Below the pieces are notes generated by a model. It ran no database searches. It worked only from the letters and a program-made list of their open reading frames with translations, and was not told the origin of the DNA. DNA of 55,693 bases from IMG/VR virus record IMGVR_UViG_3300020371_000012, positions 1 through 55,693 of that record; one strand, written 5' to 3'. The position numbers and the translations under genes are program-made. Of this stretch, positions 38,209 through 52,772 are shown one piece after another. Within the stretch, counting starts at the first letter, position 1. The number at the start of each line of letters is the position of its first letter. Origin of the DNA: a virus. Its lineage: Duplodnaviria > Caudoviricetes.

Positions 38209-38417
38209 TGGATTATTTAAAAGTTGAAAATAGTGGATCTCTTTACAGAGATCCCGATACTGGTGCGATTGTAAACCGCAGTGACAGTGAGTATGAGTCC
38301 TATTTGAAAAACAAAAGAATTGCGTCTCAAAAAGCGCAAGAAATTGATCAATTAAAGAACGACGTTAGTGAACTTAAGGACATGATGAAACTCGTTCTAG
38401 AAAAATTGGATAAATAA
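38208..38417 (+). CDS. Small coiled-coil structural or assembly protein
   Basis: TAATG overlap; MDYLKVENSGSLYRDPDTGAIVN...EIDQLKNDVSELKDMMKLVL. Confidence 0.8.
   Translation: MDYLKVENSGSLYRDPDTGAIVNRSDSEYESYLKNKRIASQKAQEIDQLKNDVSELKDMMKLVLEKLDK
38409..38416 (+). promoter_or_regulatory. Late promoter variant
   Basis: GATAAATA upstream of ATG 38440. Confidence 0.6.
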
Positions 38418-38439
38418 TTAAAATCTCCCTTTTTGTGTA

Positions 38440-38772
38440 ATGGCAGCTAGAAATGTCAATTTAGTCATTGAACAAAACGTTGATTTTGAAGCAACCTTCA
38501 CTATTAGAAATGCGAATAATTCGCCATTGAATTTGACGGGGTATTCTGCTCTTGCTAAGATTAGAAAACACCCAGATGCAACAAAATACACGGATTTTGT
38601 TATTTCTTTTCCGAATAGGATCAATGGAGTTGTAAAAGTTGCTCTTGCAGTAACTTCTACTGCTACTTTGGAGGGAGGAAGATATGTGTATGATCTGGTG
38701 CTCGTTTCTCCAAACAATTATAAGACTAGACCTATCGCAGGAAATGTTTTAGTGTTGCCTGGAGTATCATGA
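38440..38772 (+). CDS. Small virion protein (Ig-like or BppU-like)
   Basis: NLVIEQ..DF, LNLTGYSA.AKIRKH, TATLEGGRYVYD motifs. Confidence 0.75.
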   Translation: MAARNVNLVIEQNVDFEATFTIRNANNSPLNLTGYSALAKIRKHPDATKYTDFVISFPNRINGVVKVALAVTSTATLEGGRYVYDLVLVSPNNYKTRPIAGNVLVLPGVS

Positions 38773-39446
38773 CTGATTACCTAGTTAATTTAAATAGTTC
38801 TGGATCATATTCTGTTGGTGTTGACTACGAAATTCCATCGAAGTCAACTCAGAATACTAACCTAATCATTGATGACATTAATGGTCAATTCAATGGCATT
38901 GGAGTTACATTTTCGTTAAATAGTGGTGGCGATTCATATAGTCCATTAAATGACCAGCAATTGATTGTTTGTAAAAACAATCTGGTCATGGAACCTGGAG
39001 AAGATTTTACTATTGCTGGTGATCAGCTCATTTTCTCAGTTCCACCAATTGCTGGAGATGATGTGTTCATCATCGCTCTTGCAACAACAGCGGATCTAAC
39101 AAGATCTGTTAATTTTGTTATTGATAGTGGATCTCAAGCTATTTCCCCAGGAAGTAAAGGCAAAGTAACTGTCGATGTTTCTGGAACAATTGAGTCTATT
39201 AAAGTATTGAGTGATCAAACTGGAGATATTGTCTTAGAAGTTTCAAAATCCAATTTCCAAGACTTCCCTACGTTCACAACAATCACCAATAACCAAAGAG
39301 TTCAACTACAGTCCCAAAATAAGTACATTGATGATGTACTAAATAACTGGGATAAGACAATAGTTGCTGGTGATATTTTGGATTTCTCAGTAGTCAGTTC
39401 AACAAACATGCGAAGACTGCTGATCTCTTTAAAATTAAAATTATAA
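38769..39446 (+). CDS. Putative virion structural protein (225 aa)
   Basis: IDDINGQFNG...F.L...QQLIV..NN..MEPGEDF module, also seen in the giant proteins. Confidence 0.75.
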   Translation: MTDYLVNLNSSGSYSVGVDYEIPSKSTQNTNLIIDDINGQFNGIGVTFSLNSGGDSYSPLNDQQLIVCKNNLVMEPGEDFTIAGDQLIFSVPPIAGDDVFIIALATTADLTRSVNFVIDSGSQAISPGSKGKVTVDVSGTIESIKVLSDQTGDIVLEVSKSNFQDFPTFTTITNNQRVQLQSQNKYIDDVLNNWDKTIVAGDILDFSVVSSTNMRRLLISLKLKL

Positions 39447-39449
39447 ATA
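39442..39449 (+). promoter_or_regulatory. T4-type late promoter
   Basis: TATAAATA upstream of ATG 39492. Confidence 0.75.
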
Positions 39450-39491
39450 AGTATAGTTCTTAAAGTCTAACCCTTACGAGGAGTTGTTTCG

Positions 39492-40499
39492 ATGGCATTA
39501 CTAGTTCCCAATATTGGTGAAATTGAGTCTCTCCGTTATCTGATTGCTCAGAATAACTTCGTTGCAGACCTAGAGGATACCTCACCAAGGAATCTCGTAC
39601 TCAAACTGTTTACGAGTAACACCACACCCGCTGAAGGTGATGTACCTTCCCAAACTGCGTATTTCGAGCCTTATATTGATGGTAACGTCAATGGTTACGG
39701 AACTACCGCAAACACTGGTTATCCTAATTGCGTGGATAACAGAGTCGATCAGGATTATACCGCACAGTATGGCATTCTCCTAAATGGATCTCGTTGGGTT
39801 ATTAAGAACGTTGGTAGTGGTACAACCGCAACCTATCCCGAACAGACTTTCACCTTCACTGGACCTGCTGGTAACATCTATGGTTACTATGTAACCAGAG
39901 CAAACAACATGCCGATTTCGGTACAGGGTGTGCTCCACGGTGCTAGTGTCGGTATCGGAACAACCGTCACAAAGGGTAACAACACTGATCCATGTATTGG
40001 AGTTGTTGGTAACAGATATTTCACTGTTGACCCACAGGTCTCCATCAACGATCTGACTCTTGGACAGTATGTTGCTGGTAACGCAGGTGTTCAGACTGGA
40101 ACGCGAATTATCGGTATTGACCGAGCGTTGCAAGTCGTCTATCTAGACAAACCTCTGGTTGATAACATTCAGGTCGCAACTGACCCATCTGTTACATTCA
40201 GTTTTGGTAAGATTGCTATCACAGACCACGGTCTTAAGAGAGGAGATATCCTTTACGTTGCTGCTGGTGCAGGTAACACAACTCTTGAATCGAATGTTTA
40301 TACCGTCTTCGACGTACCAAACAACGATGAGTTTGTAACCACACCTTCTCTAACTGCAACATCTAACGGTGTTCTTGGTCTGAATACTGCGACCCTCTAC
40401 TCCAGCATCATGTACGCTGAGAGATTTACGAACGGTCCATACAACATTCAGAACAACGGTGACCAAATTAAGATCACCCTGAACGTCGCACTTGACTGA
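39492..40499 (+). CDS. Putative highly expressed virion protein (335 aa)
   Basis: GAGGAG RBS and C-ending codon bias; MALLVPNIGE, LVLKLFTSNTTP, YAERF..GPYNIQNNGDQIKIT. Confidence 0.8.
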   Translation: MALLVPNIGEIESLRYLIAQNNFVADLEDTSPRNLVLKLFTSNTTPAEGDVPSQTAYFEPYIDGNVNGYGTTANTGYPNCVDNRVDQDYTAQYGILLNGSRWVIKNVGSGTTATYPEQTFTFTGPAGNIYGYYVTRANNMPISVQGVLHGASVGIGTTVTKGNNTDPCIGVVGNRYFTVDPQVSINDLTLGQYVAGNAGVQTGTRIIGIDRALQVVYLDKPLVDNIQVATDPSVTFSFGKIAITDHGLKRGDILYVAAGAGNTTLESNVYTVFDVPNNDEFVTTPSLTATSNGVLGLNTATLYSSIMYAERFTNGPYNIQNNGDQIKITLNVALD

Positions 40500-40530
40500 T
40501 ACATATATACAATAGAATATTCGTCATGGT

Positions 40531-40564
40531 GGGGATTGCTTTATAATTGGGCAATCCCTTTTTT
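40531..40564 (+). terminator. Intrinsic terminator
   Basis: GGGGATTGCT-loop-GGCAATCCCT followed by TTTTT. Confidence 0.8.
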
Positions 40565-40587
40565 CATCTAATGAATAGAACTAAACT

Positions 40588-43500
40588 ATGGCCGTTTATG
40601 TCTACGATGAAAATAAGGTAGATGTATTCGTTGCGGAAGATGCAGGTTCGGTAACCGCTTCTGCGACGATAACGGCTGACTATGGCAACATTTCAGACAC
40701 CGCTGACGATGATCGCGGTGCAGACAATTTTAATCCTTGGTATTTTGGTCTAATTACAGACCTTGCTGATGTTCTACCATTTGGCAAGTTGGACGTTGGT
40801 GGAGAAGCAGAACCACTAATTGCTCCACAAGTTCCTGGTGGTGGACTATTCCGTATAGAAGATATTGCAGAAGTATCGTATGTAACCCCCTGGAGAGGGT
40901 CTGGAACCCTCTTCGAGATTGGTGGCGGTCTGGAGAGACTGGTCATCCCAGATTTGGGTGCCGCAGGACCATCTCCGTCCATTTACGGACAAGCCCACGA
41001 ATCCAACACATTCGTTGAAATCGGATCTGGTACACTCGCTCAACTCTCTGACGAAGGAGCGACAGCCAAGTTTAACAGGTATCCCTGGGACGCTTCAGGT
41101 ACTCTTACCCTCAGTGGATACAATTCCACCAGATTTCCAGATGATTTCATTGCGGTCATCAAAAATGTCGCGAAAGTCAAGGGCAAGGCTCATGATCGCG
41201 TCATCTTTGACTATAGTCTGGATCCAGATACTAAGTTTGACGCTGAAAACTACGGATTCGTATTTAATACAGCAGGAGGCAAGTTCTCCGATACTGAAGA
41301 TCTAACCTTTGATAGAATCATCACTAAGAACAAGGATAGATCCTTCAGTGATGATGATCAACTTGCATACGAAGATTACGGTGATATTACCGTATCTACT
41401 CAAGAAAAAGTCCTCCCAGTTGATATTCTGCCAGATGATCTGGCCAACTATGAGGTCTCTTACAGTAGAACATCCATCCTAGACAGTGGTTCTGGAACTG
41501 GTGCTACTGGTGGATTTAACATCGGAAGACATGTTAAGTTCGGTAATGCTGGTGGAGCTAGACAGTTCTATTGGAGATTTGACACTACAGATTCAGAATA
41601 CATCAAATTCACTGCCATTAGAGGTAATGATGTTAATGGTGGTGAAGATCCAGACACTGCTCAGGAAAGTCTATATCTTGATAGATGGACTGGAAGTAGT
41701 TGGATAAGAATTGATACGGTCATTGCATTTAATGACACTTCTTTCAATTCTCTCAAAGAAGTATCTATTCCTCTTACTCCAGCAAACAGAGGAAATTACT
41801 TCTATAGACTTAGACAAGATAATTCAAGTAACAGTGCTCAGTGGGATCATTACGGTATTACTAGTATTACCTATGATCTCAGACAAACCTTCCCAATTGA
41901 TACCGAAGATGGTGGATTCATTGAGAGGAAACTGGGTGGTGGACTCTTTATGCACGATTACCAGGCAACTGGTATCAGGGCTCAAGAGGCAATTCCATTT
42001 GCATATCTTGGTCTTGGATCTCTATTCTCTCTTGGAGAACTCGATCCAGAGAAAGATGTCGATCAGGTATTTGCATATGCAGGTTCTGGTGGATTCAATG
42101 TTACTGGAGAGAACTTCTTCAGTCAGGCTCCACAGAGTACAATCTTCGGTGAAGAAGGCGAATTCTCCTTCGGTGGATCTGCTACAGAAGCATTTGTACC
42201 TGCAACTGTTGATAATACTGTACTGTTCAATCAGGTTGGATCTGCTGATGATAAGGTCATCTGGCAGGCTGGTGAACGTAAGGTTACCATCAGACCAATT
42301 GGATTTGGTTCTGTACTTCTTTCCGATACTCCACCAACGAATACGGCAACTCTATCCGTATCTGGTGCTGCAACAAATATCGAAAGAACATTTGCGGATG
42401 GCAATGTAAATCTATTCGATATCGGTGGAGATGCTGGCAATCCACTGGATTCGAGATTTACTCCACACTTCAGATCTGCTAGAGGAGACATTATCCTCCC
42501 AGATGAAGATTGGGGTCTCATTACCAACTCGGCTACTGAGTTTGAAGATTGGGGTTATATCAGAGAAGTTGCAACCACTTCTCTCGTATTTGGAGATATT
42601 CTTTCTCCATTCAATTATATTCAAATTGGTGGTCAACATTATCCAAGTACAGATACATTCTCTGTTGGGGAGTCGTCTCTCACCAAACAGACACTTGGAT
42701 TTACAGGTATTGCAACCTTCAGACTATCCGAAGATTCCAGTCAGGAAAGAACATTCGATTACGAATCTTCAGGTATTACTGGTATTGCTACCTACAAGGC
42801 TGGTATCAATATCTTTGGTTACAACTGGTTCAGTCAGGCTCCACAGAGTACAGTATTCGGCCTTGAAGGAGAACTTACTCTTAGTGGTTCTGCAGGTGAG
42901 TCGATCACTCCATTCATTGAACCTCAAGGAACTGATGGTAACTTCAGATTCCTCACTGGATCTGCCGAAATTGTTCGTGATTCGATCACAAGAGCAGTTG
43001 CACCTGAACTACTTGGTGATGTTTATATTGGTGGAACTGCTGATATTGGATTCAGTCCTGCTGTCACTGGTGTTGGTATTGCCACACTCCGTACAGGTAG
43101 AGAAGAATTCCAGACATATCTCAGAATCATTGATCCTGATATGGATCTGGTCCTCACCACAATTGGCGGTGGACTTATCAATGAGGACTTTGTTAAGAGC
43201 TACAATGAGTCTTCCATCTACTATGGTCCTCAGGATGAGGATTATGGATCAATTCTCAGTGCAGCTGCATATGGGATGGGTCTCAACTTCTCTGGTACTG
43301 CATCTAATGTCGAAACCTTTGATGATGAGACTAATACTTATGACCAAGATGTACTCTTCAGTAACAACGGTCTAACTTACGACCAGAGCACTGGCGGAAA
43401 CACTGTTCTCCCAAGTTTCGACAAAACAGATTCGTTCCCTGTCAACTTCTCAACTACTGTTGTATCTGAAGATCTTGGTAGTATCAACGAAGGTATTCCA

Positions 43501-45717
43501 ATCCCAGGTGGTAAGGCATACGATCAATATCTATTCCCATATTATACTGGATTTGTTGATCAAGATATTGACCAAGGTTACGATGACTTTGGATTCATCA
43601 ATGCTACTACTGACTCGGTAACAAGAGTACCTTACGGTACATATGAGTTTGAACAACCCAGACCACTGGCGAAGACCATGTGGATTCCCAAGTGGAATGG
43701 TTCTGGTACTATTGTTCCTTCTGGTACTGCAAACGAAAGATTTGTTACCTCAGACGGCAACACTGTTCTCTTCGATTTTGTTGGAACAACTTCACCAGAG
43801 AAGTTTATTGCTCAGACTCCAGAAGATACAGTTCTTCTCACCTTCGCTGGTGCAGCCGAAGACGAATCGGTCACCTTCAGCGAAGTTGGAATTGGAACCG
43901 CATACTTCTCTGGTGCGGGTGTCGAGAGTGTCAGATTTGTCGAAATCGGAACTGGAATTCTTTCCTTCTCTGGTGCGGCAGTCGAGAGATCCACTATGGA
44001 TCCACCAGAAGGAACATACCTCCACATATTCAGTGGAGCCGATGTTCGTCCTGGACTTACTTTTGCTGCGGAGACAACAAAGGCAACTCAACGTCTGTAT
44101 GGGGAACTCAATCACCCACAGATCGACTTTACTCCACATTATGGTATCGACAGAAATATCGGTATCGAAACTGGTATTACTCTCAAACCTGGAAGTTCTC
44201 CTGGAGAATACGGCAATCCTGGTATTGTTACTACAAGATTTGTTCCAAAATACACTGGTGGTCCTGGTGTTGGAACAGACGGAGTTCTCCTCTTCAGTGG
44301 CAGGGCTATTGGTCGTACCAATGCACCAATCTTTACCGATGGTACAATTTACATCCTCGGTGTTCACACCGCGGCTCAAGGAATCAGTTCTGGAAGAGAG
44401 ACTGGTCTTGTCGAGAGTTTCACTCCTGGAACAATATTTGGTGGTCCTGGTCAAGTTACCTTCAAAGGTATTTCTCCAACTCGTCCAATTCAGGTCTTTG
44501 GTTATTATGGAGACGACAGAGATCCTGGTGCTGGTACATCTGGAGTTATCACAATCAATCCTTCCCAAACGGGAATCGAAATCAGATCTCTCAAAGATTA
44601 TATTGGTGTTGGAACTGCATACTTCTCTGGAGGATATTCCGATCTCTCTGCGACATTCAGCGAAATTGGAACAGGAGAACTCTTCAAGTTCTCTGCTCTA
44701 TACGAAAGAAGAACCTTCGATTATGTTGGTTCTGGTACACTTACTGCATCTGGAACAACAGATGCTCCAAGTACCTTCCAGACTCCAGACAATACAGTTC
44801 TATTCACAGTTTCTGGAGAGGCACAAAAACGTGCCTCCCTCAAGGACGACATGGGTGGAACGATTTCCATCTACAATACGGAAAGAGTTGTTACTGGAAT
44901 TACTCTTTCCATTGCAACTGGAGGCACATTCAGTTTCTTCTCCAGTGGTGCAGAATCTATTGTTATTCCTTCGGAGACCACTACGGCTCTCTTCGATATC
45001 GAAGGAATTGCCGATACCAGAGAAATTCAGGTCTACGGTTACTACGGAGATGATAGAGATCCTGGTACATCTGGAACTATCACAATTGTTGGTGAACTCA
45101 CTCACCCACAGATCGACTTCACTCCTGCCGAGACTGGATTTGGAGATCTCACTTTCGTTGGCGAATCTATCGTCAAGGTCGATCTCAAGATCGTCGGAAA
45201 AGGAACTCTTCCACTATCTGGTACTGCAACGGAGAAATTCGTCAGTGCCGCGGGCGAAGATACGATTCTCTTCTCCATCGATGGGGACGGAGAAACTGCT
45301 CTCAATTCTGTATATGGTTACTACGGAGACGACAAGGATCCTGGTACATCTGGTCAGGCTACATTCTCTGGAATCGGAGATACCAGAAAGATTACCGTAT
45401 ACGGATACTACGGAGACGACAAGGATCCTGGTACATCGGGAACATTTACATTCTCGAACACTCCACTTGTTCATCCAGAAGTCGATTACACTCCACACTA
45501 TACAGCCAGAGGAGTTATCAACTTCACTGGCGGCGTTTCTGTCAAGAGAACTTTCCCAGAGGTTGTTGGTTCTGGATCGCTCTTCGGATTTGGAACAAAA
45601 GACGAAGCGTATGCGAGAACAACATACGTCGGTATCGGTGTTGCAGGGTTCTTCGGAGCTGCATTTACAGAGACAGTTGCATTTGAACCATCTCGCGTAT
45701 ACGTTACTATCATTTAA
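40588..45717 (+). CDS. Large acidic, Gly/Thr-rich virion (fibre-like) protein, 1709 aa
   Basis: Long ORF in the tail region with ED[YW]G repeats, GSG.L.F.G repeats and 4 x GYYGDD[RK]DPG..TSG. Confidence 0.85.
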   Translation: MAVYVYDENKVDVFVAEDAGSVTASATITADYGNISDTADDDRGADNFNPWYFGLITDLADVLPFGKLDVGGEAEPLIAPQVPGGGLFRIEDIAEVSYVTPWRGSGTLFEIGGGLERLVIPDLGAAGPSPSIYGQAHESNTFVEIGSGTLAQLSDEGATAKFNRYPWDASGTLTLSGYNSTRFPDDFIAVIKNVAKVKGKAHDRVIFDYSLDPDTKFDAENYGFVFNTAGGKFSDTEDLTFDRIITKNKDRSFSDDDQLAYEDYGDITVSTQEKVLPVDILPDDLANYEVSYSRTSILDSGSGTGATGGFNIGRHVKFGNAGGARQFYWRFDTTDSEYIKFTAIRGNDVNGGEDPDTAQESLYLDRWTGSSWIRIDTVIAFNDTSFNSLKEVSIPLTPANRGNYFYRLRQDNSSNSAQWDHYGITSITYDLRQTFPIDTEDGGFIERKLGGGLFMHDYQATGIRAQEAIPFAYLGLGSLFSLGELDPEKDVDQVFAYAGSGGFNVTGENFFSQAPQSTIFGEEGEFSFGGSATEAFVPATVDNTVLFNQVGSADDKVIWQAGERKVTIRPIGFGSVLLSDTPPTNTATLSVSGAATNIERTFADGNVNLFDIGGDAGNPLDSRFTPHFRSARGDIILPDEDWGLITNSATEFEDWGYIREVATTSLVFGDILSPFNYIQIGGQHYPSTDTFSVGESSLTKQTLGFTGIATFRLSEDSSQERTFDYESSGITGIATYKAGINIFGYNWFSQAPQSTVFGLEGELTLSGSAGESITPFIEPQGTDGNFRFLTGSAEIVRDSITRAVAPELLGDVYIGGTADIGFSPAVTGVGIATLRTGREEFQTYLRIIDPDMDLVLTTIGGGLINEDFVKSYNESSIYYGPQDEDYGSILSAAAYGMGLNFSGTASNVETFDDETNTYDQDVLFSNNGLTYDQSTGGNTVLPSFDKTDSFPVNFSTTVVSEDLGSINEGIPIPGGKAYDQYLFPYYTGFVDQDIDQGYDDFGFINATTDSVTRVPYGTYEFEQPRPLAKTMWIPKWNGSGTIVPSGTANERFVTSDGNTVLFDFVGTTSPEKFIAQTPEDTVLLTFAGAAEDESVTFSEVGIGTAYFSGAGVESVRFVEIGTGILSFSGAAVERSTMDPPEGTYLHIFSGADVRPGLTFAAETTKATQRLYGELNHPQIDFTPHYGIDRNIGIETGITLKPGSSPGEYGNPGIVTTRFVPKYTGGPGVGTDGVLLFSGRAIGRTNAPIFTDGTIYILGVHTAAQGISSGRETGLVESFTPGTIFGGPGQVTFKGISPTRPIQVFGYYGDDRDPGAGTSGVITINPSQTGIEIRSLKDYIGVGTAYFSGGYSDLSATFSEIGTGELFKFSALYERRTFDYVGSGTLTASGTTDAPSTFQTPDNTVLFTVSGEAQKRASLKDDMGGTISIYNTERVVTGITLSIATGGTFSFFSSGAESIVIPSETTTALFDIEGIADTREIQVYGYYGDDRDPGTSGTITIVGELTHPQIDFTPAETGFGDLTFVGESIVKVDLKIVGKGTLPLSGTATEKFVSAAGEDTILFSIDGDGETALNSVYGYYGDDKDPGTSGQATFSGIGDTRKITVYGYYGDDKDPGTSGTFTFSNTPLVHPEVDYTPHYTARGVINFTGGVSVKRTFPEVVGSGSLFGFGTKDEAYARTTYVGIGVAGFFGAAFTETVAFEPSRVYVTII
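43653..45053 (+). other. Candidate overprinted -1-frame ORF (466 open codons, GTG at 43680, ends TGA-TAG)
   Basis: The ORF track shows 43680..45053 and 43643..45751 overlapping the main ORF, so all three + frames are open. Upstream, -1-frame stops are frequent. Confidence 0.45.
44491..45441 (+). repeat. Four dispersed copies of a GYYGDD(R/K)DPG(AG)TSG-encoding repeat
   Basis: Copies at about 44491-44544, 45028-45075, 45310-45354 and 45397-45441. Confidence 0.85.
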
Positions 45718-45720
45718 CTT

Positions 45721-45728
45721 TATAAATA
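45721..45728 (+). promoter_or_regulatory. T4-type late promoter
   Basis: TATAAATA upstream of ATG 45762. Confidence 0.8.
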
Positions 45729-45761
45729 ACTCAGAAGCATACCTTTCATAAGTTCTGATTC

Positions 45762-46220
45762 ATGACAAAGCAGGTTCAATTTAGAAAGGGAACTACAGCT
45801 GAACACTTTAACTTCACTGGAGCCCTTGCTGAAATTACTGTTGATACGGATAAAAATGTTGCTGTTGTTCATGATGGTGTAACTCCTGGTGGTTTTGAAC
45901 TTTCAAAATCAAGATGGACTTACGTTGCAGGCGATACTACAACTGGTACTAACCAAAAGTATACCGTTGATTCTACGTATAGTCCAACAGGATTAAACGT
46001 TACCCTACCAACACCTCGTGCAGTTGGTGACTGGGTTTGGATTGAAGACTTTGGTAATTTTATGAGTATCAATCCAGTAAACATCATTTCAGATCAATCT
46101 TTTGAGAATGGTCATCTCGTTAGAGAAAGCTCACCCTTTATTATGGATGTATCTGGAGCTTCCGTAACATTCATTTGGAATGGAAGCCTTTGGAAAGTGT
46201 TCAACAATAGAGGCAGTTAA
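45762..46220 (+). CDS. Tail-fibre-associated protein with Mtd/hyaluronidase-type N-terminal domain
   Basis: QVQFRKGTTAEH..FTGALAEITVDTDK.VAVVHDGVTPGGF; its C-terminal module resembles the end of the 1479-aa protein. Confidence 0.75.
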   Translation: MTKQVQFRKGTTAEHFNFTGALAEITVDTDKNVAVVHDGVTPGGFELSKSRWTYVAGDTTTGTNQKYTVDSTYSPTGLNVTLPTPRAVGDWVWIEDFGNFMSINPVNIISDQSFENGHLVRESSPFIMDVSGASVTFIWNGSLWKVFNNRGS

Positions 46221-46222
46221 CC

Positions 46223-46627
46223 ATGGCATTAACCCTAAGTAATTCTATTTCAGGTCGTTTTGAACCCTCAGAATCATCTGGATTTTTCGTATATGCATTA
46301 AGAAGAGATGCAGAAAATATGCTGTATTTCTCCAAGGTTAGTGCTGCATCTACTGAACTAGGTGAGTTCTATCGTAACGACGGAACTGCAATTCCAGAGT
46401 TTGGTGACGGTATTGATTACGGTACATATGATGTTGGTGTTGGTAAAACATCAGTCATCCGTAATGATATTGCCACTGAGAAGAAAGCTTTAGATGATCC
46501 GAATGATAAATATCAACAGATCCGCTTTGACAGAAGGAACCTCTACTATTACATAGATGATGATGGTTTTTTCGTCATCAGGTTCAATGGACCAGATTAT
46601 GATTACAACTCTATCGGACCCAAATAA
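46223..46627 (+). CDS. Hypothetical virion protein (134 aa)
   Basis: FFVYALRRD..MLYF, DKYQQIRFDRRNLYYYIDDDGFFVIR. Confidence 0.8.
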   Translation: MALTLSNSISGRFEPSESSGFFVYALRRDAENMLYFSKVSAASTELGEFYRNDGTAIPEFGDGIDYGTYDVGVGKTSVIRNDIATEKKALDDPNDKYQQIRFDRRNLYYYIDDDGFFVIRFNGPDYDYNSIGPK

Positions 46628-46646
46628 TAATTAAAAAGGAGAAACA

Positions 46647-49600
46647 ATGGCTGAGTTTAGACTTGGAAGAGTAAAATTCAACTGGACGGGCAACTGGGCA
46701 CCTTCCAAATCCTACCTGATTGACGACATCGCCAAGTTTGGTGGTAATACTTATGTAGCGGTCGCTAACCACACTTCCACGGCAAGCACTGCTAACTTCT
46801 ATACCGACCTTGGAAATTGGAATCTACATATTGAGGGTCTGGAGCAAAGAGGTGCTTGGACTAGTGATACGTATTACAGAGTAAACGATCTCGTCACCTA
46901 TGCTAACGTAGTATATCGCGTTACTGAGGCACACACTTCTGTCGGTACATTTATCGATGAAACGAAGGTTGTTCAGTATGTCGCAGGCTTCAATGCAGAG
47001 GGGGATTGGGAACTTTCTACGGAATATCAGAAAGGCGATGTTGTTAACTACAACGGATCGTCCTATGTTGCAATTACTACTTCCGCTGCAGGATTTAACC
47101 CACCAGAGTACATCGGTTTAGGAACAGGTAGCAAGTGGAATATTCTTGCTGATGGTCTTGCTGGTGCGGCAATCACATATACTGAGGGTACATACTATAG
47201 AGGAGATATGGTCCTCTATGGTGGTAATACGTATCGCCATAAAGTTGGTGTTACTACTAACGTTTCTCCGATTCAAGTTGGCTTGGGAACTGTTGGTGAT
47301 GGCGCTCGCTTTGGATCCTCAACTTGGGATCTATTGGTCAAAGGTATCAATTTCGTTGGCAACTTCTCTACAACATTCTCATACCACCCAGGTCACGTTG
47401 TTAGATATGGATCTAACTCCTATGTCTCGGTTGGTAATTCCTTCGTAAATATTGACCCAATTGCTGGTGTAGGCACCTATTGGGAGACACTGGCTGCTGG
47501 TGACTCTGCAGCTGCACTGAACACCAAGGGTGATTTGCTCACCTATAATGGTGGTCCTACTAGAATCGGTATTGGTTCTACTGGTTACGCTCTTGCAGTT
47601 CAGTCTAATGGACTACCTGGATACGAAATTGTAGGTAACCAGACTAGAATTTACTATGTTGACTCCGAGGATGGAGTTGATACAAACAACGGTCTTGCAC
47701 CTAACCTGGCATTTAAGACTATTAAGAGGGCTTGTGCTGCTGCACGTCCTGATAATAATATCACGGACTTCCAGTATACAGCTTCCACTGGTGTTGCGAC
47801 AATCACATCTCCTGGTCACGGACTGGCTAACGTTGGTACGTTTATCCAGTTGGCTGAGATTGAGTTTGAGTGTCTGTCTGGTGGTAATGTCTTCAACATC
47901 CTGGGCATGACCTACAACAAGGCTGTTGGTCTTGCAACTATCACGGCTATTGGTCTTGGTGCTGCTCCAGAAATCGGAATCGGTGCTACTGTAAGACTAA
48001 GAAATCTTGGTGTTTCGTTCACTGGTAATGCAAACTTCGATCACCAGTTCTCCAGTGCATTGGATGATGCAGTTATCACTGGTGGTGATTACATCCACAA
48101 CTTCGTTGCTGCTCAAACTGGTGCAATCAACGTTATGACTGGATCCCTTGCAGGTTCTCAGTTAACTCCAACAAACGCTGTTTACTCTGCAACCAGTGGT
48201 GATCTGGTTATCACCGTTGGATCTCACGGTCTGTCCATTAGTGACACCATCAGCTTTGACGCTAACTCCATGACATTTACTTGTCAGATGGACGGTGGTA
48301 CTGCTAACAAGACATATCCAAGAACAACTGACCCCGCATACGGCGTCAACCTTCCAATCAACTCGATTAGTGCAAACACTTTCACAGTTAACGTTGGACC
48401 TTCTCCAATTGTAAACTTCAACGTTAATGATGCAACATATAACCAGAACACTGGTGACATCACAATGAACATCGGTGTTCACCAACTTGATGTTGGCACA
48501 TCGGTCAAACTCCGCACCGAAGGTCTGATCTTCAAGTGTTCCATGGACGGTTATCTAACCGACCACGCATATCCAAGAGCAACTGCTGGTGATGGTTCTC
48601 CTGACCCTGCATACAACACTGCTCTGTCAATTACTGCTGCAACAACTGACACTATTACGGTTAATGTTGGTACTGCAAGTTCTTCTCAGACAATTAACGG
48701 TAAGTTCCCTGCAGTTCACACTCAGGCATCTACCTTCCAGTTCCCAGTACAGGCTGTTCCCGATGCGAACTCTATCGTAGTTAACGTTGGTGTTTCTAAC
48801 ACTGATTACCTCTACGTTTCTGGTGGTACTGCATTCGTTGGTGTTACTACAACCGTCTATCCTGATAAGGTCTCCAAGTCTTACTTTGAAGTTCTTCAGG
48901 TTATTGACGCTAACACCATTAGAACTAACGTTGGTATTTCTACTATTAACCACACATATGTAAGAGGCGGTCACCTAACTGACTTGACTCCTGCTATTCT
49001 GAAACTGTCTGCTTCTCAGTTCTATGAGCAACTGCCAATTAAGGTTCCTCCTTTCACCTCGATTGTCGGTAACTCTCTGAGAGGTACTCAGGTTCTACCT
49101 GCTGCTGGTATTTCTGACGACTCTGTTACTCCTAACAACAGATCCCAGATGTTCCAAATGTCTGACGCAACTACGCTTCAGGCGCTTTCCATGAAGGGAA
49201 TGGAAGGATTCCACTATGATGATCAGGCACCTTTCGTACTCGATAACTCCAACCTAAGAACTGGTATCGGTACTACCGCTTGTGGTGTTGTTTGTGCTCT
49301 GAACCCAGATTCCCCAATTAATAACAAGTCTCCTTACGTTAAGGATTGTACTGTATTCTCCGACAACGCAACTGATTACGGTCGCTTCGGTGGTGGTGCA
49401 GTCGGCGTCTTCTGTGACGGTGGCGTCCATGACGAAGGTGCAAAATCGATGGTCTTTGACTCCTTCACCCAGGTATCTTCCGATGGTGCTGGATTCATCC
49501 TTGATAAGAGTGCAATTGCTGAGATTGTCTCCTGCTTCACATACTACTGTCAGTGGGGTTACTACTCTGGTGGTGGATCTAGAATCCGTTCCGTTGGTGG

Positions 49601-51086
49601 TAACAACTCTTACGGTGACTATGGTGTTATTGCATCTGGTTTCTCCACTGAGGAGACTCCAAGAACTGCAAGAGTCTTTGGTGAACTGATGTCCGTCAAC
49701 GGCGTCACTAAGGCAGGTACACTGGCAATCGGTGCTACAATGTTCGGTGCAACATCTGGTGCTCGTGCATGGTTCCTGAATGACCAAACTTCTGCAGATA
49801 AGATTTACTTCAAGTATCATCCTGGTTACGGTTCTGTTGGTCTTGGCACCACTGGATTCGTAGATGGTGAGATTATCTGGTTCGGTGCAGGTGGTGACAG
49901 TCAGGCTGGCGTTGGTTCCATCACAGTCTCTGGTGTTACTTCTTCCATCAGTGGTCAGAAGGGTACAATCCTTGAGGTTGACAACACTTCTGGAACACTA
50001 CTGGTTGGTGACGCAATTGGATTCACTACCGCTTCTACTTACGGTAATGATGACCTCTTCTACATCATTAACACCATTACAAACGTCTCTGCCGCTTCTA
50101 CTTACACGTATTACACAACTTCTGGCATCGCAACCGTAACATATCCTGGTCGCGCTACTCTGACAATCTCTCCAGAGAAATCTTCTGGAACATGGGATAC
50201 CAGAGAAAACAATGCTGGCGGTTCCGCAATTGATATCAGAACCCTCTTCTCGCAGTGTCGCCTAACAGGTCACGACTTCCTGAGTGTTGGTACTGGTAGT
50301 AAGGCAGAAACCAACTATCCTGATGTTGATCAAACTAGAATTATTCAGGGTAATGAGACTAACTACTTCGGTCCTGGTAAAGTCTTCTTCGTCTCTACTG
50401 ACCAAGGTGGTAACTTCAGAGTTGGTCAATTCTTCTCCGTTGACCAGTTGACTGGTCGCGCTACCTTGGACGCCTCTGCATTCAACCTGTCTGGTCTGAC
50501 TGAACTGAGACTGGGTGCAATTGGTGGTCAGGTCGGTGAGGCAATTAACGAATTCTCCTCCGACGAATTCATGTCTGGTATGTCCAACAGTGCATGTCCT
50601 ACTGAGGCTGCAGTTGCTGGATTCCTCCGCCACGGTGCGATGGGTTCCAAGGCAATGACTCCTCCAGTTGGTACTACCGCTCAAAGACCTGGCGGCGTTG
50701 ATGAAGAGTTCAACACTGGTGCTCTAAGATTTAACACCGATCTCGGTGCTCTTGAGTACTACAACGGAACTACTTGGGTACAACCTGGACTTTCCTCTTA
50801 TTCCACTCTGTCTACCTCCCAGGCAGTCGGTGCTAAGGGTAATGTCTACTTCGTCAACACCACTGGTGGTCAGATCACTGCGACTCTGCCTTCCAACCCA
50901 GACCTTGGCGATACCGTCAGATTCTACGATGTTGCCAAGACCTTTGATTCCAACAGCCTGATCATTGGACGTAACGGAAAACTGATTCAGGGTGACTCCT
51001 CTAACATGACTGTCTCGCTTGAGGGTGCGGCATTTGAACTCACCTTCTCGGGTGACTCCTACGGTTGGAGACTGTTCTCCGTCTGA
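46647..51086 (+). CDS. Tail fibre or spike with N-terminal carbohydrate-binding-like repeats and a beta-helix-like region
   Basis: AGGAG RBS; MAEFRLGRVKFNWTGNW; repeated W....Y...D.V.Y.G.SY; YYVDSEDG.D.NNG....AFKTIKRA; FYEQLPIKVPPFTSIVGNSLR; PVGTTAQRP..G.LRFNT. Confidence 0.85.
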   Translation: MAEFRLGRVKFNWTGNWAPSKSYLIDDIAKFGGNTYVAVANHTSTASTANFYTDLGNWNLHIEGLEQRGAWTSDTYYRVNDLVTYANVVYRVTEAHTSVGTFIDETKVVQYVAGFNAEGDWELSTEYQKGDVVNYNGSSYVAITTSAAGFNPPEYIGLGTGSKWNILADGLAGAAITYTEGTYYRGDMVLYGGNTYRHKVGVTTNVSPIQVGLGTVGDGARFGSSTWDLLVKGINFVGNFSTTFSYHPGHVVRYGSNSYVSVGNSFVNIDPIAGVGTYWETLAAGDSAAALNTKGDLLTYNGGPTRIGIGSTGYALAVQSNGLPGYEIVGNQTRIYYVDSEDGVDTNNGLAPNLAFKTIKRACAAARPDNNITDFQYTASTGVATITSPGHGLANVGTFIQLAEIEFECLSGGNVFNILGMTYNKAVGLATITAIGLGAAPEIGIGATVRLRNLGVSFTGNANFDHQFSSALDDAVITGGDYIHNFVAAQTGAINVMTGSLAGSQLTPTNAVYSATSGDLVITVGSHGLSISDTISFDANSMTFTCQMDGGTANKTYPRTTDPAYGVNLPINSISANTFTVNVGPSPIVNFNVNDATYNQNTGDITMNIGVHQLDVGTSVKLRTEGLIFKCSMDGYLTDHAYPRATAGDGSPDPAYNTALSITAATTDTITVNVGTASSSQTINGKFPAVHTQASTFQFPVQAVPDANSIVVNVGVSNTDYLYVSGGTAFVGVTTTVYPDKVSKSYFEVLQVIDANTIRTNVGISTINHTYVRGGHLTDLTPAILKLSASQFYEQLPIKVPPFTSIVGNSLRGTQVLPAAGISDDSVTPNNRSQMFQMSDATTLQALSMKGMEGFHYDDQAPFVLDNSNLRTGIGTTACGVVCALNPDSPINNKSPYVKDCTVFSDNATDYGRFGGGAVGVFCDGGVHDEGAKSMVFDSFTQVSSDGAGFILDKSAIAEIVSCFTYYCQWGYYSGGGSRIRSVGGNNSYGDYGVIASGFSTEETPRTARVFGELMSVNGVTKAGTLAIGATMFGATSGARAWFLNDQTSADKIYFKYHPGYGSVGLGTTGFVDGEIIWFGAGGDSQAGVGSITVSGVTSSISGQKGTILEVDNTSGTLLVGDAIGFTTASTYGNDDLFYIINTITNVSAASTYTYYTTSGIATVTYPGRATLTISPEKSSGTWDTRENNAGGSAIDIRTLFSQCRLTGHDFLSVGTGSKAETNYPDVDQTRIIQGNETNYFGPGKVFFVSTDQGGNFRVGQFFSVDQLTGRATLDASAFNLSGLTELRLGAIGGQVGEAINEFSSDEFMSGMSNSACPTEAAVAGFLRHGAMGSKAMTPPVGTTAQRPGGVDEEFNTGALRFNTDLGALEYYNGTTWVQPGLSSYSTLSTSQAVGAKGNVYFVNTTGGQITATLPSNPDLGDTVRFYDVAKTFDSNSLIIGRNGKLIQGDSSNMTVSLEGAAFELTFSGDSYGWRLFSV

Positions 51087-51125
51087 TACGTGACTATCTT
51101 TGTTATGATTTTTCTTTATCCTTCG

Positions 51126-51133
51126 TCTAAATA
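51126..51133 (+). promoter_or_regulatory. Late promoter variant
   Basis: TCTAAATA upstream of ATG 51154. Confidence 0.6.
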
Positions 51134-51153
51134 AAACTAATCTAGGATCGTAA

Positions 51154-51936
51154 ATGGCCAACTATAGATCATATAAAAAAGTCACGGCGGCCCAGGTTCC
51201 CGATGGGTCCATCACCATTGAAAAACTTGCAAATGGTGTTGGGCCTTCTTGGTGTGTAAAAACTTTCTACGGTTCACCAGGAGTTTGTACTGCTGGTTGT
51301 TGCTGTAATTGGACAGTGCCATCAGGAGTTGCTAAACTAACTTGGGAACTTTGGGGTGCTGGAGGAAATGGACACGGAGCCTGTTCCTGCAGAAGATGTC
51401 ATCACTATAGAGGTGCTGGTGGAGGTTCCTTCACAACCAAAACAATCAGTACAAACTCAGGATGTTCATATACAGTATGTGCTGCTGGAGTTTACAGATG
51501 TTGCTCTAGAGAATGTGTTGGATGTTATGGATGTGCATCATATGTTAATGGATATAACTTGAGTAATTTCTGTGCAGTTGGCGGTGGTAGAGGAGAGGCC
51601 AATACCGATTGGTCTAACCTTTGTCATTCAACAATTGCTTGTTGCGTTCAACCTGGAAGTTACAATAGTGACTTTGGAATGAATGCACATTGGCCTGGAT
51701 TCAGTGGTCACTGGAACTGCCATTGCGGTGCATCGGTAACTCAAACTTGTTCTGGTGCTGCTCCATTTATTGGAGTCGGTAACAAAACGTTCTCCAACTA
51801 CTGTTGGATTCGTTGTGGTTGCTGGACCTCTCCATACGGTGCAGGTGGACAGGGTGCAATGACTTCATATTGTGAGAGATGCTGCGGACAAGGCGGTACA
51901 GGTGGATCTGGACTCGTAAGACTCACATACATGTAA
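51154..51936 (+). CDS. Cys/Gly-rich putative tail-fibre tip protein, paralog 1
   Basis: WTVPSGV...ELWGAGGNG...GGSGLVRLTY Gly-rich fibre domain; ~28 Cys in 260 aa. Confidence 0.8.
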   Translation: MANYRSYKKVTAAQVPDGSITIEKLANGVGPSWCVKTFYGSPGVCTAGCCCNWTVPSGVAKLTWELWGAGGNGHGACSCRRCHHYRGAGGGSFTTKTISTNSGCSYTVCAAGVYRCCSRECVGCYGCASYVNGYNLSNFCAVGGGRGEANTDWSNLCHSTIACCVQPGSYNSDFGMNAHWPGFSGHWNCHCGASVTQTCSGAAPFIGVGNKTFSNYCWIRCGCWTSPYGAGGQGAMTSYCERCCGQGGTGGSGLVRLTYM

Positions 51937-51948
51937 TAGAGGGAATCA

Positions 51949-52746
51949 ATGGCTGACTATTTAAGTTACAAAAAAATTCAAGGCGACCAGTTGGATGATG
52001 GCATCCTGACTGCTGCCAAGTTTTCCACATCCCCAACTTCCACATTTGGAGTGAAGTGGTTTTACGGGACAATGTGTCGTTGTTCTGGTGGTTGTTGCTG
52101 TCTTTGGACTGTACCAACTGGAGTTAAGAAACTCTGGATTCAGGCTTGGGGATCTGGTGGTAATGGATCTGGATCTTGTTCCTGTAGAAGATGTCAGCAC
52201 TATAGAGGTGCAGGCGGTGGATTCTACAATAGTGTCATGATTGATACTGCTGCAGGATGTCAGTATAGAGTCTGTGCAGGTGGTGTATATCCATGTCTCT
52301 CTAGAGAATGTAATGGATGTATTGGTTGTGCATCATATGTTAATGGATATAACTTGAGCAACTTCTGTGCTTATGGTGGTTCATGTGGTCATGCTAACAG
52401 TAGTTGGGCTGAGGCATGTAACGCGACTTGGCACTGCTGTGTAGGACCAACATCTAATGGTGGTCAGTTTGGTATGGGTAACCTAAGAGATACTTGGTCT
52501 TCGGCTGGTTACTCAACCAATAGAGGTAGATGGTGTCACTGCTATACTCAGATGACTAATCCAACTGCCGCTCCATTCATTGGAACCGAAGTTATTCAAT
52601 CACTTCGTGAGTGTTGGATTCGTTGTGGTTGCTGGATCGTTCCTTATGGTCATGGTGGACAAAACGCAATGACTACATACTGCGAAAGATGCTGCGGACA
52701 AGGCGGTACAGGTGGCGGCGGTCTAGTCAAAATCACGTACTTCTGA
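51949..52746 (+). CDS. Cys/Gly-rich putative tail-fibre tip protein, paralog 2
   Basis: Colinear with paralog 1; ~27 Cys in 265 aa. Confidence 0.8.
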   Translation: MADYLSYKKIQGDQLDDGILTAAKFSTSPTSTFGVKWFYGTMCRCSGGCCCLWTVPTGVKKLWIQAWGSGGNGSGSCSCRRCQHYRGAGGGFYNSVMIDTAAGCQYRVCAGGVYPCLSRECNGCIGCASYVNGYNLSNFCAYGGSCGHANSSWAEACNATWHCCVGPTSNGGQFGMGNLRDTWSSAGYSTNRGRWCHCYTQMTNPTAAPFIGTEVIQSLRECWIRCGCWIVPYGHGGQNAMTTYCERCCGQGGTGGGGLVKITYF

Positions 52747-52772
52747 TAAATAACTATTAAATAGGACTCCTA

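What the first reader, a model, noticed from the sequence alone, without database searches (positions are those of the whole stretch)
43653..45714. A 2-kb, strand-specific stop-codon desert: all three forward frames open inside a virion gene
Seen: after TGA 43644 and TGA 43650 the + strand has no TAA, TAG or TGA in any frame until TGA-TAG at 45051-45056. After that only TGA 45093 and TGA 45684 occur before the real stop at 45715. In the ~170 codons just upstream I count roughly 19 -1-frame stops (NNT followed by GA/AA/AG), about 1 per 9 codons. About 50 would be expected in the 466-codon stretch, and none occur. T-ending codons stay common but switch to C/A/G endings before D/E/N/K/R (GTC GAG, ATC GAA, TTC GAT, GCC GAT, GGG GAA). 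The minus strand is not depleted (TCA/TTA/CTA are common), which argues against a double-stranded DNA motif or restriction effect, and neighbouring genes do not show it. Inference: selection at the RNA or translation level to keep alternative frames open. Options are overprinted proteins, programmed frameshift or bypass isoforms of a fibre, a frame-tolerant hypervariable segment, avoidance of an RNase site, or an RNA read through all frames (e.g. a circular form). I know no description of this in T4-like cyanophages.
Basis: partly seen in the sequence, partly recalled or inferred. Interest (0 to 1): 0.92.

Follow-up and report, generated by a model that had tools for sequence, protein, structure and literature searches.

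The report
Fibre gene purged of off-frame stops
One long tail-fibre-module gene of marine T4-like cyanophages keeps its two alternative forward reading frames almost free of stop codons, in dozens of diverged relatives and without encoding a second protein, and I found no published description of such a pattern in a DNA phage.

Summary
The + strand has no TAA, TAG or TGA in any frame from 43653 to 45050, and only four more before the gene's stop at 45715. Synonymous shuffles of the 466 stop-free codons give 39 off-frame stops on average and never fewer than 26 in 5000 trials.

The gene is 40588-45717 (1709 aa) and sits in a baseplate and tail-fibre module. The depletion is specific to this gene:
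- No other ORF in the window shows it.
- None of the other ORFs of at least 200 aa in the 233-kb genome of phage S-SSM7 shows it.
- No stop-free run of 200 nt or more lies outside this gene in 691 kb of related loci.

It is conserved. All 56 metagenomic homologues are depleted, 54 of them at z -7.4 to -13.8.

The alternative frames are not second genes. Synonymous sites evolve freely and no frame-swapped homology exists. No conserved slippery site or RNA element was found.

My best reading (confidence 0.4) is translation-level selection that stops out-of-frame ribosomes from terminating inside the gene. The most likely reason is that truncated fibre fragments are harmful. The closest precedent is the stop-free non-coding frames of ambigrammatic narnaviruses. 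The mechanism is untested.

The parts
40588..45717 (+). Host gene: a 1709-aa structural protein of the baseplate and tail-fibre module (homologue of S-SSM7 SSSM7_110, 'hypothetical protein'). The first ~150 alignment columns (and the first 100 codons in the window's gene) have normal off-frame stop density.
   Evidence: ORF and translation. Weak PHROG hit phrog_11522 only, no Pfam hit. Synteny with gp6/gp7/gp8-like and fibre genes in S-SSM7. Off-frame stops 13 (+1) and 104 (-1) against 32 and 165 expected, z -10.
43653..45050 (+). Absolute desert: no TAA, TAG or TGA in any of the three forward frames.
   Evidence: Observed 0 against 39 expected; minimum 26 in 5000 synonymous shuffles.
45051..45714 (+). 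3' continuation of the desert. It holds only four stops, all in the -1 frame: an island at 45051, 45054 and 45093, and a single stop at 45684, 11 codons before the gene's end.
43643..45751 (+). +1-frame ORF of 702 codons overlapping the gene. It is open but shows no sign of being a gene (L/S/E/R-rich off-frame translation).
   Evidence: No Pfam or PHROG hit. No constraint at the amino-acid level.
43680..45053 (+). -1-frame (+2) ORF of 457 codons overlapping the gene. It is open but shows no sign of being a gene (about 25% W/Y/C).
41732..43375 (+). Upstream extension of the +1-frame depletion: two long +1-frame ORFs, 41732-42409 and 42431-43375. Across the family, +1 stops fall from 3-10 to about 0.1 per 100 codons at alignment column ~495.
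41922..42150 (+). Mid-gene stretch free of stops in all frames (228 nt). It adjoins the first copy of the conserved FSQAPQST repeat.
42543..42864 (+). Mid-gene stretch free of stops in all frames (321 nt). It adjoins the second copy of the FSQAPQST repeat. The matching alignment columns 750-850 hold 0.4-1.1 stops in the -1 frame per 100 codons across the homologues.
40531..40565 (+). Terminator-like hairpin followed by T6, 23 nt upstream of the start codon. It marks the 5' edge of the gene's expression unit.
   Evidence: Conserved with compensatory stem changes in 32 of 37 distinct upstream regions.
45721..45728 (+). TATAAATA, which matches the T4-type late-promoter consensus (the consensus is recalled, not tested). 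It begins four bases after the gene's stop codon ends. It also supplies the stops that close the 0 and -1 frames.
   Evidence: present within 70 nt of the stop in 52 of 53 loci, with 0 copies inside 237,769 nt of gene bodies.

Best explanation
Shown: purifying selection removes UAA, UAG and UGA from the two alternative forward frames of this fibre-module gene through context-dependent synonymous codon choice. It does not otherwise constrain what those frames encode.

Inferred: Ribosomes that have left the correct frame, mostly through spontaneous +1 or -1 slips during the 1709-codon translation, are kept from terminating inside the gene. Instead of being released within about 4-15 codons, as in neighbouring genes, they run on for hundreds of codons, often almost to the normal stop.

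Most speculative step: the likely benefit concerns the product. A prematurely released chain would carry the conserved N-terminal part plus a short tail. Such a chain could occupy a site in the baseplate or fibre as a defective 'poison' subunit. A chain dragging a long hydrophobic or W/C/R-rich nonsense tail would more likely be degraded or excluded.

This is the reverse of the 'ambush' idea that off-frame stops are useful.
For: (1) Specificity to stops. In an unbiased test of all 64 trinucleotides over 18 homologues, TGA, TAG and TAA are the three most depleted in the +1 phase (ratios 0.00, 0.03, 0.05). In the -1 phase they are the most depleted together with TTT (0.17-0.25). TGG, TAT and TAC are enriched.

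(2) Strand specificity and synonymous mechanism.

(3) Gene specificity. In the window, other ORFs have z -2.7 to +2.1 against -10. In the whole S-SSM7 genome, of 118 ORFs of at least 200 aa, only this gene (z -10.5) and its own 1237-codon +1-frame ORF (z -14.7) stand out; the next is -3.8 and the major capsid gene is -2.5. Outside the gene there are 0 stop-free runs of 200 nt or more in 691 kb; inside it there are 228.

(4) Conservation under synonymous turnover. All 56 loci are depleted, 54 at z -7.4 to -13.8, and 46 of 56 have zero +1 stops. Stop-free runs reach 2145 nt. Differences at four-fold sites between diverged pairs reach 0.4-0.6.

(5) No second protein. The synonymous-identity profile is flat (0.83-1.09). 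Alternative-frame identity is only 0.02-0.05 above that of the N-terminal region. Given stop-freeness, the +1 peptide composition matches a constrained null (|z| up to 1.5), while the -1 frame departs modestly (fewer K/R/D/E, z -3.9 in 2 of 3 homologues).

(6) The two frames behave differently in the same segment. At alignment columns 900-1200 the observed/expected ratio is 0.25 for +1 stops and 0.86 for -1 stops. A frame-blind reader would not obviously produce this.

(7) Residual -1 stops are clumped. 92 adjacent pairs lie within 20 codons, against 27.8 +/- 3.9 for random placement among risk sites (0 of 2000 nulls reach this). This is expected if a stop just downstream of another one costs little.

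(8) Neither the stop depletion nor the slippery-motif depletion is seen in the first ~150 alignment columns. This fits harm that requires an intact N-terminal part.

(9) The consequence in the window: the median nonsense tail after a slip in codons 1021-1709 would be 355 codons (+1) and 159 codons (-1), against 13-22 and 4-6 in four neighbouring giant genes.

(10) The N-terminal part is the more conserved and the C-terminal part the more variable between close relatives. This is the usual layout of a fibre with an anchor at one end and a binding tip at the other; that layout is from general knowledge and was not tested here.
Against: No expression or ribosome data exist for this gene. The only RNA evidence is three short metatranscriptome contigs that cannot show frame or level.

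Spontaneous frameshifting is rare, so the harm from truncated chains has to be assumed to be large. Nothing here shows that the protein is oligomeric or that fragments are dominant-negative.

Other giant structural genes and the neighbouring 1479-aa fibre gene lack the trait, so a special property of this protein has to be assumed.

Stop islands recur at the same alignment columns in several lineages (1248-1299, 1474-1547). That could mean local relaxation rather than the shadow of an upstream stop.

Mid-gene deserts are followed by stop-rich stretches, so 'run to the end' cannot be the whole story.

The depletion of slippery motifs is only the extreme of a continuum. The Z_ZZN ratio is 0.36 here against 0.52-0.61 in the next genes. 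T-runs are equally absent from the capsid, sheath and other fibre genes.

Avoiding +1-phase stops costs less in codon choice than avoiding -1-phase stops, which weakens argument (6).
Confidence: 0.4

Rival explanations
1. Ribosome transit or cover, as proposed for ambigrammatic narnaviruses. What matters is that ribosomes in any frame, including ones that start internally out of frame, stay on this mRNA segment. That would shield it from endonucleases or keep it unfolded. The product would be irrelevant.
For: Stop-freeness without protein-level constraint is exactly the pattern reported for the narnavirus reverse frames, whose authors surmise ribosome association that protects the RNA (PMC8155312, abstract and Discussion read). 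The depletion is strongest towards the 3' end, and all frames close within 4-68 nt after the main stop.
Against: Alternative-frame start codons are not enriched: ATG ratio 0.98 in the +1 phase and 0.74 in the -1 phase, similar to the controls. Making 460-700-residue nonsense proteins would be costly. No other long late gene of the same phage does this. Upstream deserts are kept even in lineages where a downstream island ends the frame.
Confidence: 0.15
2. Frame-blind avoidance at the RNA or single-stranded DNA level. A nuclease or binding factor of host or phage recognises UAA, UAG and UGA as plain triplets on this transcript.
For: The effect is confined to the sense strand and needs no alternative-frame product. 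The sequence alone cannot exclude an unknown factor.
Against: The avoided set is exactly the three stop codons, while UGG, UAU, UAC, UGU and UGC are normal or enriched. I know of no nuclease with that specificity (recalled, not searched). A factor acting in trans should affect other transcripts, yet 0 runs of 200 nt or more occur outside this gene in 691 kb and none elsewhere in 233 kb of S-SSM7. The two phases are depleted to different degrees in the same segment.
Confidence: 0.12
3. Functional trans-frame products. A programmed frameshift or transcriptional slippage yields fibre isoforms with alternative C-terminal parts. Alternatively, fast-evolving overprinted proteins are made whose composition, not sequence, matters.
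For: Very long open frames: 702 and 457 codons here, and 1237 codons in S-SSM7. The +1 frame opens at a fairly constant alignment column, around 486-500, in many lineages.
Against: No conserved slippery heptamer was found. X_XXY_YYZ motifs number 8 against 32 expected and Z_ZZN motifs have a ratio of 0.44. The highest peak of synonymous conservation is 1.34-fold. There is no Rfam element. Alternative-frame identity is at background and the alternative-frame peptides have no family hits. The boundaries of the open -1 frame differ between lineages. Composition matches the stop-free null for the +1 frame; for the -1 frame it departs modestly (fewer K/R/D/E, z -3.9 in 2 of 3 homologues).
Confidence: 0.1
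4. Evolvability. Open frames let insertions and deletions, or out-of-register recombination, create new fibre sequence without truncating the protein.
For: The C-terminal part is the more variable part of the protein, and modules of about 170-200 aa come and go between close relatives.
Against: There are 0 protein matches between any alternative-frame translation and any main-frame homologue. There are 0 out-of-frame ungapped nucleotide matches, against 2.98 Mb in frame, among about 59 genes. The laid contigs show no insertion or deletion polymorphism. Short compensated shifts would not need 2-kb deserts. Shifts shorter than about 25 nt could not be detected here.
Confidence: 0.07
5. Chance, base composition or codon usage alone.
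For: The gene uses more C-ending and fewer NTA/NTG codons than its neighbours. That lowers the baseline for +1-phase stops.
Against: The shuffles keep the segment's own codon usage and still give 39 +/- 4 stops, against 0 observed. G+C is only 42-49%. The pattern recurs in all 56 loci.
Confidence: 0.01

Closest known systems
Ambigrammatic narnaviruses (stop-free reverse frames; Dudas et al. 2021, PMC8155312, abstract and Discussion read)
   Same: A long reading frame other than the coding one is kept free of stops by synonymous codon choice. It is maintained in diverged relatives. Polymorphism analysis indicates that it does not encode a functional protein. The proposed reader is the ribosome.
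   Different: There the frame lies on the complementary strand of a whole RNA genome segment in a eukaryotic virus. Here both alternative frames of the sense strand of one gene of a dsDNA phage are open, while the complementary strand is normal. The depletion here is graded and broken by islands rather than running the full length.
Ambush hypothesis (off-frame stops favoured so that frameshifted translation ends early; seen in passages of PMC8410138 and of bioRxiv 10.1101/2025.10.02.679949)
   Same: It has the same actors: off-frame stop codons, and selection acting through ribosomes that have slipped out of frame.
   Different: The sign is opposite. Here off-frame stops are removed, in one gene family only, which implies that early release is worse than running on.
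Overlapping (overprinted) viral genes detected by ORF length (Schlub et al. 2018, PMC6188560, search listing only)
   Same: The alternative-frame ORFs are far longer than codon or synonymous permutation allows, which is the criterion such screens use.
   Different: Both alternative frames are open at once. There is no drop in synonymous rate, no conservation at the alternative-frame amino-acid level and no family hit.
Programmed -1 frameshift of phage tail assembly chaperones (lambda G/GT type; recalled)
   Same: It occurs in a phage tail-module gene and gives translation continuing in another frame.
   Different: That system has a conserved slippery heptamer and a short, conserved trans-frame product. 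Here slippery motifs are depleted and the alternative-frame sequence is unconstrained.

Membership tests
Overlapping (overprinted) protein-coding gene | Alternative-frame ORF longer than expected by chance | tested here: met
   702 and 457 codons. In synonymous shuffles the longest run free of off-frame stops averages 141 nt and never exceeds 297 nt, against 1401 nt observed.
Overlapping (overprinted) protein-coding gene | Reduced synonymous variability of the host frame over the overlap | tested here: not met
   Four-fold-site divergence is equal or higher in the desert. Synonymous codon identity is 0.83-1.09 of expectation along the gene.
Overlapping (overprinted) protein-coding gene | Amino-acid conservation or family membership of the alternative-frame product | tested here: not met
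   Alternative-frame identity at fixed main-frame identity is only 0.02-0.05 above that of the N-terminal region, whose alternative frames are closed. There are no Pfam or PHROG hits.
Programmed ribosomal frameshift or transcriptional slippage site | Conserved slippery motif at the entry to the open frame | tested here: not met
   Slippery heptamers number 8 against 32 expected and tetramers have a ratio of 0.44. No such motif appears in the codon alignment around columns 484-592.
Programmed ribosomal frameshift or transcriptional slippage site | Conserved stimulatory RNA element (local synonymous conservation) | tested here: not met
   The highest 15-codon window is 1.34-fold. Rfam gives only two chance-level matches, E 0.3 and 0.91.
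Ambigram-type stop-free non-coding frame (narnavirus) | Long stop-free non-coding frame kept in diverged relatives without protein-level constraint | tested here: met
Ambigram-type stop-free non-coding frame (narnavirus) | The open frame lies on the complementary strand and spans the whole RNA segment | tested here: not met
   Stop complements for the minus strand are at normal density, 61 against 67.9 expected. The open frames are on the sense strand and cover only part of one gene.
Ambigram-type stop-free non-coding frame (narnavirus) | Ribosomes occupy the non-coding frame | not testable with these tools
   No ribosome profiling was available. The RNA contigs cover three short parts only.
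Ambush-type enrichment of off-frame stops | Off-frame stops at or above expectation | tested here: not met
   Observed 4 against 58 expected in 688 codons.
Diversity-generating retroelement target (considered because the next gene has an Mtd_N domain) | Template and variable repeat pair | tested here: not met
   Only in-frame internal repeats of 62-80% identity were found in 38000-55693. A reverse transcriptase was not searched for.
GC-driven 'shadow' ORFs | High G+C that makes stops rare in all frames and on both strands | tested here: not met
   G+C is 0.42-0.49 in the region. The minus strand is normal.

The most novel reading that the evidence does not exclude
A DNA phage has evolved a sense-strand counterpart of the narnavirus ambigram. 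In one fibre gene, all three frames are kept readable because a biologically meaningful share of ribosomes translate it out of frame. Where those ribosomes stop then decides the quality of the virion or the fate of the mRNA. If so, off-frame termination would be a selectable, gene-specific trait, and its sign would reveal which proteins are vulnerable to truncated 'poison' chains. The trait would also give a handle for measuring frameshift error rates in nature.
Probability: 0.3. Interest if true: 0.9.

Novelty: new variant of a known kind. Interest (0 to 1): 0.82.

Why it matters
Off-frame stop codons are usually discussed as neutral or mildly useful (the ambush hypothesis). Here selection runs strongly the other way. 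It is confined to one gene family, held for long evolutionary times and not explained by a second protein.

That makes several things testable:
- Whether truncated chains of long virion proteins act as poisons.
- How often ribosomes slip on long phage messages.
- Whether ribosome run-through without a useful product, proposed so far only for narnaviruses, is a wider viral strategy.

It also has a practical side. Screens that call overlapping genes from ORF length alone would wrongly call two giant overlapping genes here. Gene finders may also be misled by the 700-1237-codon shadow ORFs.

Tried and rejected
Overprinted genes were rejected on synonymous-site and alternative-frame conservation tests and on family scans.

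Frame-swapped evolution was rejected. blastp of all alternative-frame translations against all main-frame homologues gave 0 hits at E <= 1e-3. Ungapped blastn gave 0 shifted matches.

A first pairwise nucleotide alignment with cheap gaps produced many 1-2-nt gap pairs. I judged these to be alignment artefacts and did not use them.

No tandem repeats were found. The self-blastp for internal protein repeats gave nothing beyond the self hit. The DNA repeat finder showed only short in-frame motif repeats.

No Rfam family was found. Alternative-frame start codons and Shine-Dalgarno-like motifs are no different from the controls.

Structure: the AlphaFold2 monomer model of the C-terminal 688 residues, built with a 30-row alignment, was unusable (mean pLDDT 26.5), so no fold search was run. 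The job for three copies of residues 389-688 returned no answer and is used neither for nor against anything. Sequence searches of solved structures found nothing meaningful.

RNA runs X19 and X20 hold only three short contigs over the region. They cannot show transcription level, strand or frame. The two joints in DNA run X15 have short sides (27-32 nt), lie at the repeated YGYYGDD motif and were disregarded.

The idea that depletion of slippery motifs is a special mark of this gene was weakened by the whole-genome comparison.

Literature: five full-text searches found no description of gene-specific off-frame stop depletion in phages. Supplementary files were not consulted and may hold relevant tables.

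Full report
THE OBSERVATION.
On the + strand the stop trinucleotides fall at 43644 and 43650. The next are at 45051, 45054, 45093 and 45684, and the gene's own stop is at 45715. The 1401-nt gap is the longest in the 55,693-nt window. The four longest + strand gaps all lie in the ORF 40588-45717. Outside it the longest gap is 142 nt on the + strand and 108 nt on the minus strand; the longest minus-strand gap of all, 123 nt, lies inside the gene at 45542-45665.

G+C is only 0.42-0.49 here. A first-order Markov expectation for the 1398 nt is about 60 stop triplets, against 0 observed, while TGG, TAT, TAC and TGC are over-represented.

Synonymous shuffles that keep the amino-acid sequence and the segment's own codon usage give 36.1 (-1 frame) + 2.9 (+1 frame) stops for the 466 stop-free codons, and never fewer than 26 in 5000 trials. 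For all 688 codons up to the gene's end they give 52.5 + 5.5, against 4 + 0 observed.

The mechanism is visible in codon choice. A codon ending in T precedes a codon starting with GA, AA or AG in 4 of 141 cases. Upstream in the same gene the figure is 26-41%. T before GG, GC, GT, AC or AT remains at 38-66%. The complements of minus-strand stops are at normal density, 61 against 67.9 +/- 3.6.

THE SEQUENCE IS REAL.
The stretch is held by runs from 10 studies. A 4892-nt contig of run X9 covers 43000-45348 with 3 differences, and a contig of run X15 covers 43000-44892 with 23. Most of the listed variants are at third codon positions, and none creates a stop triplet.

WHAT THE GENE IS.
The 1709-residue product has no Pfam family and only a weak match to a PHROG of unknown function. 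No relative has a solved structure.

The gene sits in a baseplate and tail-fibre module:
- Upstream: a 2509-aa protein, a homologue of a fibre-assembly protein, and proteins whose best PHROG matches are a virion-structural-protein family (38769-39446) and a family of unknown function (39492-40499).
- Downstream: a small tail protein with an Mtd_N domain, and a 1479-aa fibre protein with CBM_5_12 modules.

In phage S-SSM7 the homologue SSSM7_110 follows the gp25, gp6, gp7 and gp8 homologues. At least 514 database proteins belong to the family, and all those listed that carry a name are called hypothetical.

HOW SPECIFIC IT IS.
In the window every other ORF of at least 150 aa outside this gene has z between -2.7 and +2.1, against -10 for this gene.

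In the complete 232,878-nt S-SSM7 genome there are 118 ORFs of at least 200 aa. Only SSSM7_110 (z -10.5) and the 1237-codon +1-frame ORF inside it (z -14.7) are depleted. The next lowest is -3.8 and the major capsid gene is -2.5. The six longest stop-free runs on the + strand all lie in this gene.

In 691 kb (the window plus 60 loci) there is no stop-free run of 200 nt or more outside the gene on either strand; the maximum is 170. Inside the gene there are 228 such runs, 126 of them 400 nt or longer.

HOW CONSERVED IT IS.
Of 56 IMG/VR loci encoding relatives (83% down to 28% identity), all are depleted in the matched C-terminal region. Fifty-four have z -7.4 to -13.8. The two most distant have -5.0 and -3.7. 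Forty-six have no +1-frame stop at all. Stop-free runs reach 2145 nt. Several loci are near-duplicates; 42 distinct full-length sequences were used for the profiles.

Along their alignment:
- +1-frame stops fall from 3-10 per 100 codons in the first ~500 columns to about 0.1 thereafter.
- -1-frame stops go from 5-17 per 100 codons in most of the first 1200 columns, with a dip to 0.4-1.1 at columns 750-850, to 0-4 in the last 800 columns.
- In the last ~30 columns they rise again to about 5.

Expressed against shuffles, the ratio for -1-frame stops runs 0.75, 1.09, 0.66, 0.43, 0.86, 0.28, 0.13, 0.17 from the 5' to the 3' end. For +1-frame stops it runs 0.91, 0.76, 0.13, 0.23, 0.25, 0.10, 0.00, 0.07.

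An unbiased test of all 64 trinucleotides in both off-frame phases puts TGA, TAG and TAA at the bottom. Only TTT is comparably depleted, and only in the -1 phase.

WHAT IT IS NOT.
- Not a second protein. Four-fold sites differ as much in the desert as elsewhere. Codon identity at conserved residues is 0.83-1.09 of expectation in every 100-column bin, and no 15-codon window exceeds 1.34. At a given main-frame identity, the alternative-frame identities are only 0.02-0.05 higher than in the N-terminal region, whose alternative frames are closed. Given stop-freeness, the +1 peptide composition matches a constrained permutation null; the -1 frame departs modestly (fewer K/R/D/E, z -3.9 in 2 of 3 homologues).
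- Not frame-tolerant evolution. No alternative-frame translation matches any main-frame homologue. All 2.98 Mb of ungapped nucleotide matches among the homologues are in register.
- Not a programmed shift, as far as sequence can show. Slippery heptamers and tetramers are depleted (8 against 32, and a ratio of 0.44). Nothing conserved marks the point where the +1 frame opens. Rfam finds nothing.
- Not a circular or spliced RNA, as far as the thin RNA evidence goes. The depletion is also not absolute in most homologues.

FURTHER ANATOMY.
Residual -1-frame stops come in tight islands: 92 neighbouring pairs lie within 20 codons, against 27.8 +/- 3.9 for random placement. In the window's lineage the island is at 45051-45093. 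Other lineages have islands at alignment columns 1248-1299 and 1474-1547. Most have a cluster in the last 40 columns.

After the main stop, the alternative frames close within 4-68 nt.

Depletion of slippery motifs starts at about column 150 and runs to the end. The whole-genome comparison shows that this is the extreme of a continuum shared with other late structural genes.

In the window, a slip in codons 1021-1709 would give a median nonsense tail of 355 codons (+1) or 159 codons (-1). In four neighbouring giant genes the figures are 13-22 and 4-6.

INTERPRETATION.
The avoided set is exactly the three stop codons. The effect is confined to the sense strand and to one gene, and it differs between the two phases within the same segment. 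The only known reader that fits is the ribosome.

The alternative frames carry no other constraint, so what is selected is non-termination, not a product.

I therefore favour selection acting through ribosomes that have slipped out of frame. Three observations fit the idea that early release of a chain with an intact N-terminal part is harmful while a long nonsense tail is not:
- the normal first ~150 columns;
- the clumping of residual stops;
- the conserved N-terminal and variable C-terminal layout.

This last step is inference. Nothing here shows oligomerisation, copy number or a dominant-negative effect. The islands that recur at the same columns and the mid-gene deserts do not follow simply from the model. 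I give the whole chain of reasoning 0.4.

The rivals are ribosome cover in the narnavirus sense (0.15), a frame-blind RNA-level factor (0.12), functional trans-frame products (0.10) and evolvability (0.07).

COMPARISON WITH WHAT IS KNOWN.
The nearest precedent I found is the ambigrammatic narnaviruses. There a stop-free reverse frame is maintained without coding for a functional protein, and the authors surmise that ribosomes associate with and protect the RNA (PMC8155312, abstract and Discussion read). The present case differs in strand, in the number of frames, in genome type and in being confined to one gene.

The ambush literature concerns the opposite sign (passages of PMC8410138 and of bioRxiv 10.1101/2025.10.02.679949).

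Five full-text searches found no report of such depletion in a phage gene. Supplements were not seen.

VERDICT.
This is a real, strongly selected, family-wide and gene-specific depletion of off-frame stops with no second protein behind it. I class it as a new variant of the 'stop-free non-coding frame' phenomenon. The mechanism is open.

Noticed in passing
window 40531-40565: A terminator-like hairpin (11-bp stem) followed by T6 ends 23 nt before the gene's start codon. A hairpin followed by T5-7 is present in 32 of 37 distinct upstream regions of homologues. The stem sequences differ in a compensatory way, while the loop keeps TTTATAW. It may both end the upstream transcript and carry a promoter-like element for this gene.
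   Followed up: partly
window 45721-45728 (also 20491, 39442, 53624): TATAAATA matches the T4-type late-promoter consensus (recalled). It occurs only four times on the + strand of the window, each time just before or after a gene boundary. It follows this gene's stop within 70 nt in 52 of 53 loci and never occurs inside the gene bodies (0 in 237,769 nt).
   Followed up: partly
L062 (S-SSM7 record 89120-92830): In S-SSM7 the +1-frame ORF inside the homologous gene is 1237 codons long. That is long enough to be called as a gene by ORF-length criteria.
   Followed up: yes
window 51154-53570: Three tandem paralogous genes of about 260 codons each (51154-51936, 51949-52746, 52773-53570) share repeat families at 68-80% identity, with spacing of about 795-824 nt.
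   Followed up: no
window 42090-42182 and 42801-42893: A 93-nt in-frame repeat encoding FSQAPQST(I/V)FG is unusually conserved at the codon level across divergent homologues (AAC TTC TTC AGT CAG GCT CCA CAA AGT ACA ...). It gives the highest synonymous-conservation window, 1.34-fold.
   Followed up: partly
window 44467-45450: There are four in-frame copies of an 81-nt unit encoding (V/I)(Y/F)GYYGDD(R/K)DPG(A)GTSG. They explain the spurious 'skip' joints seen in the contigs of DNA run X15.
   Followed up: partly
window 45762-46220 and 46647-51086: The next gene has an Mtd_N domain (E 2.5e-12). The following 1479-aa fibre gene has three CBM_5_12 modules. No template/variable repeat pair of the diversity-generating kind was seen nearby.
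   Followed up: partly
window 40588-45717: The protein is poor in methionine (7 of 1709 residues). It contains no M-[IMTNK] dipeptide, the only dipeptides that would force a +1-frame TGA (expected about 1.7). The giant neighbouring proteins are also Met-poor (0.5-1.35%).
   Followed up: partly
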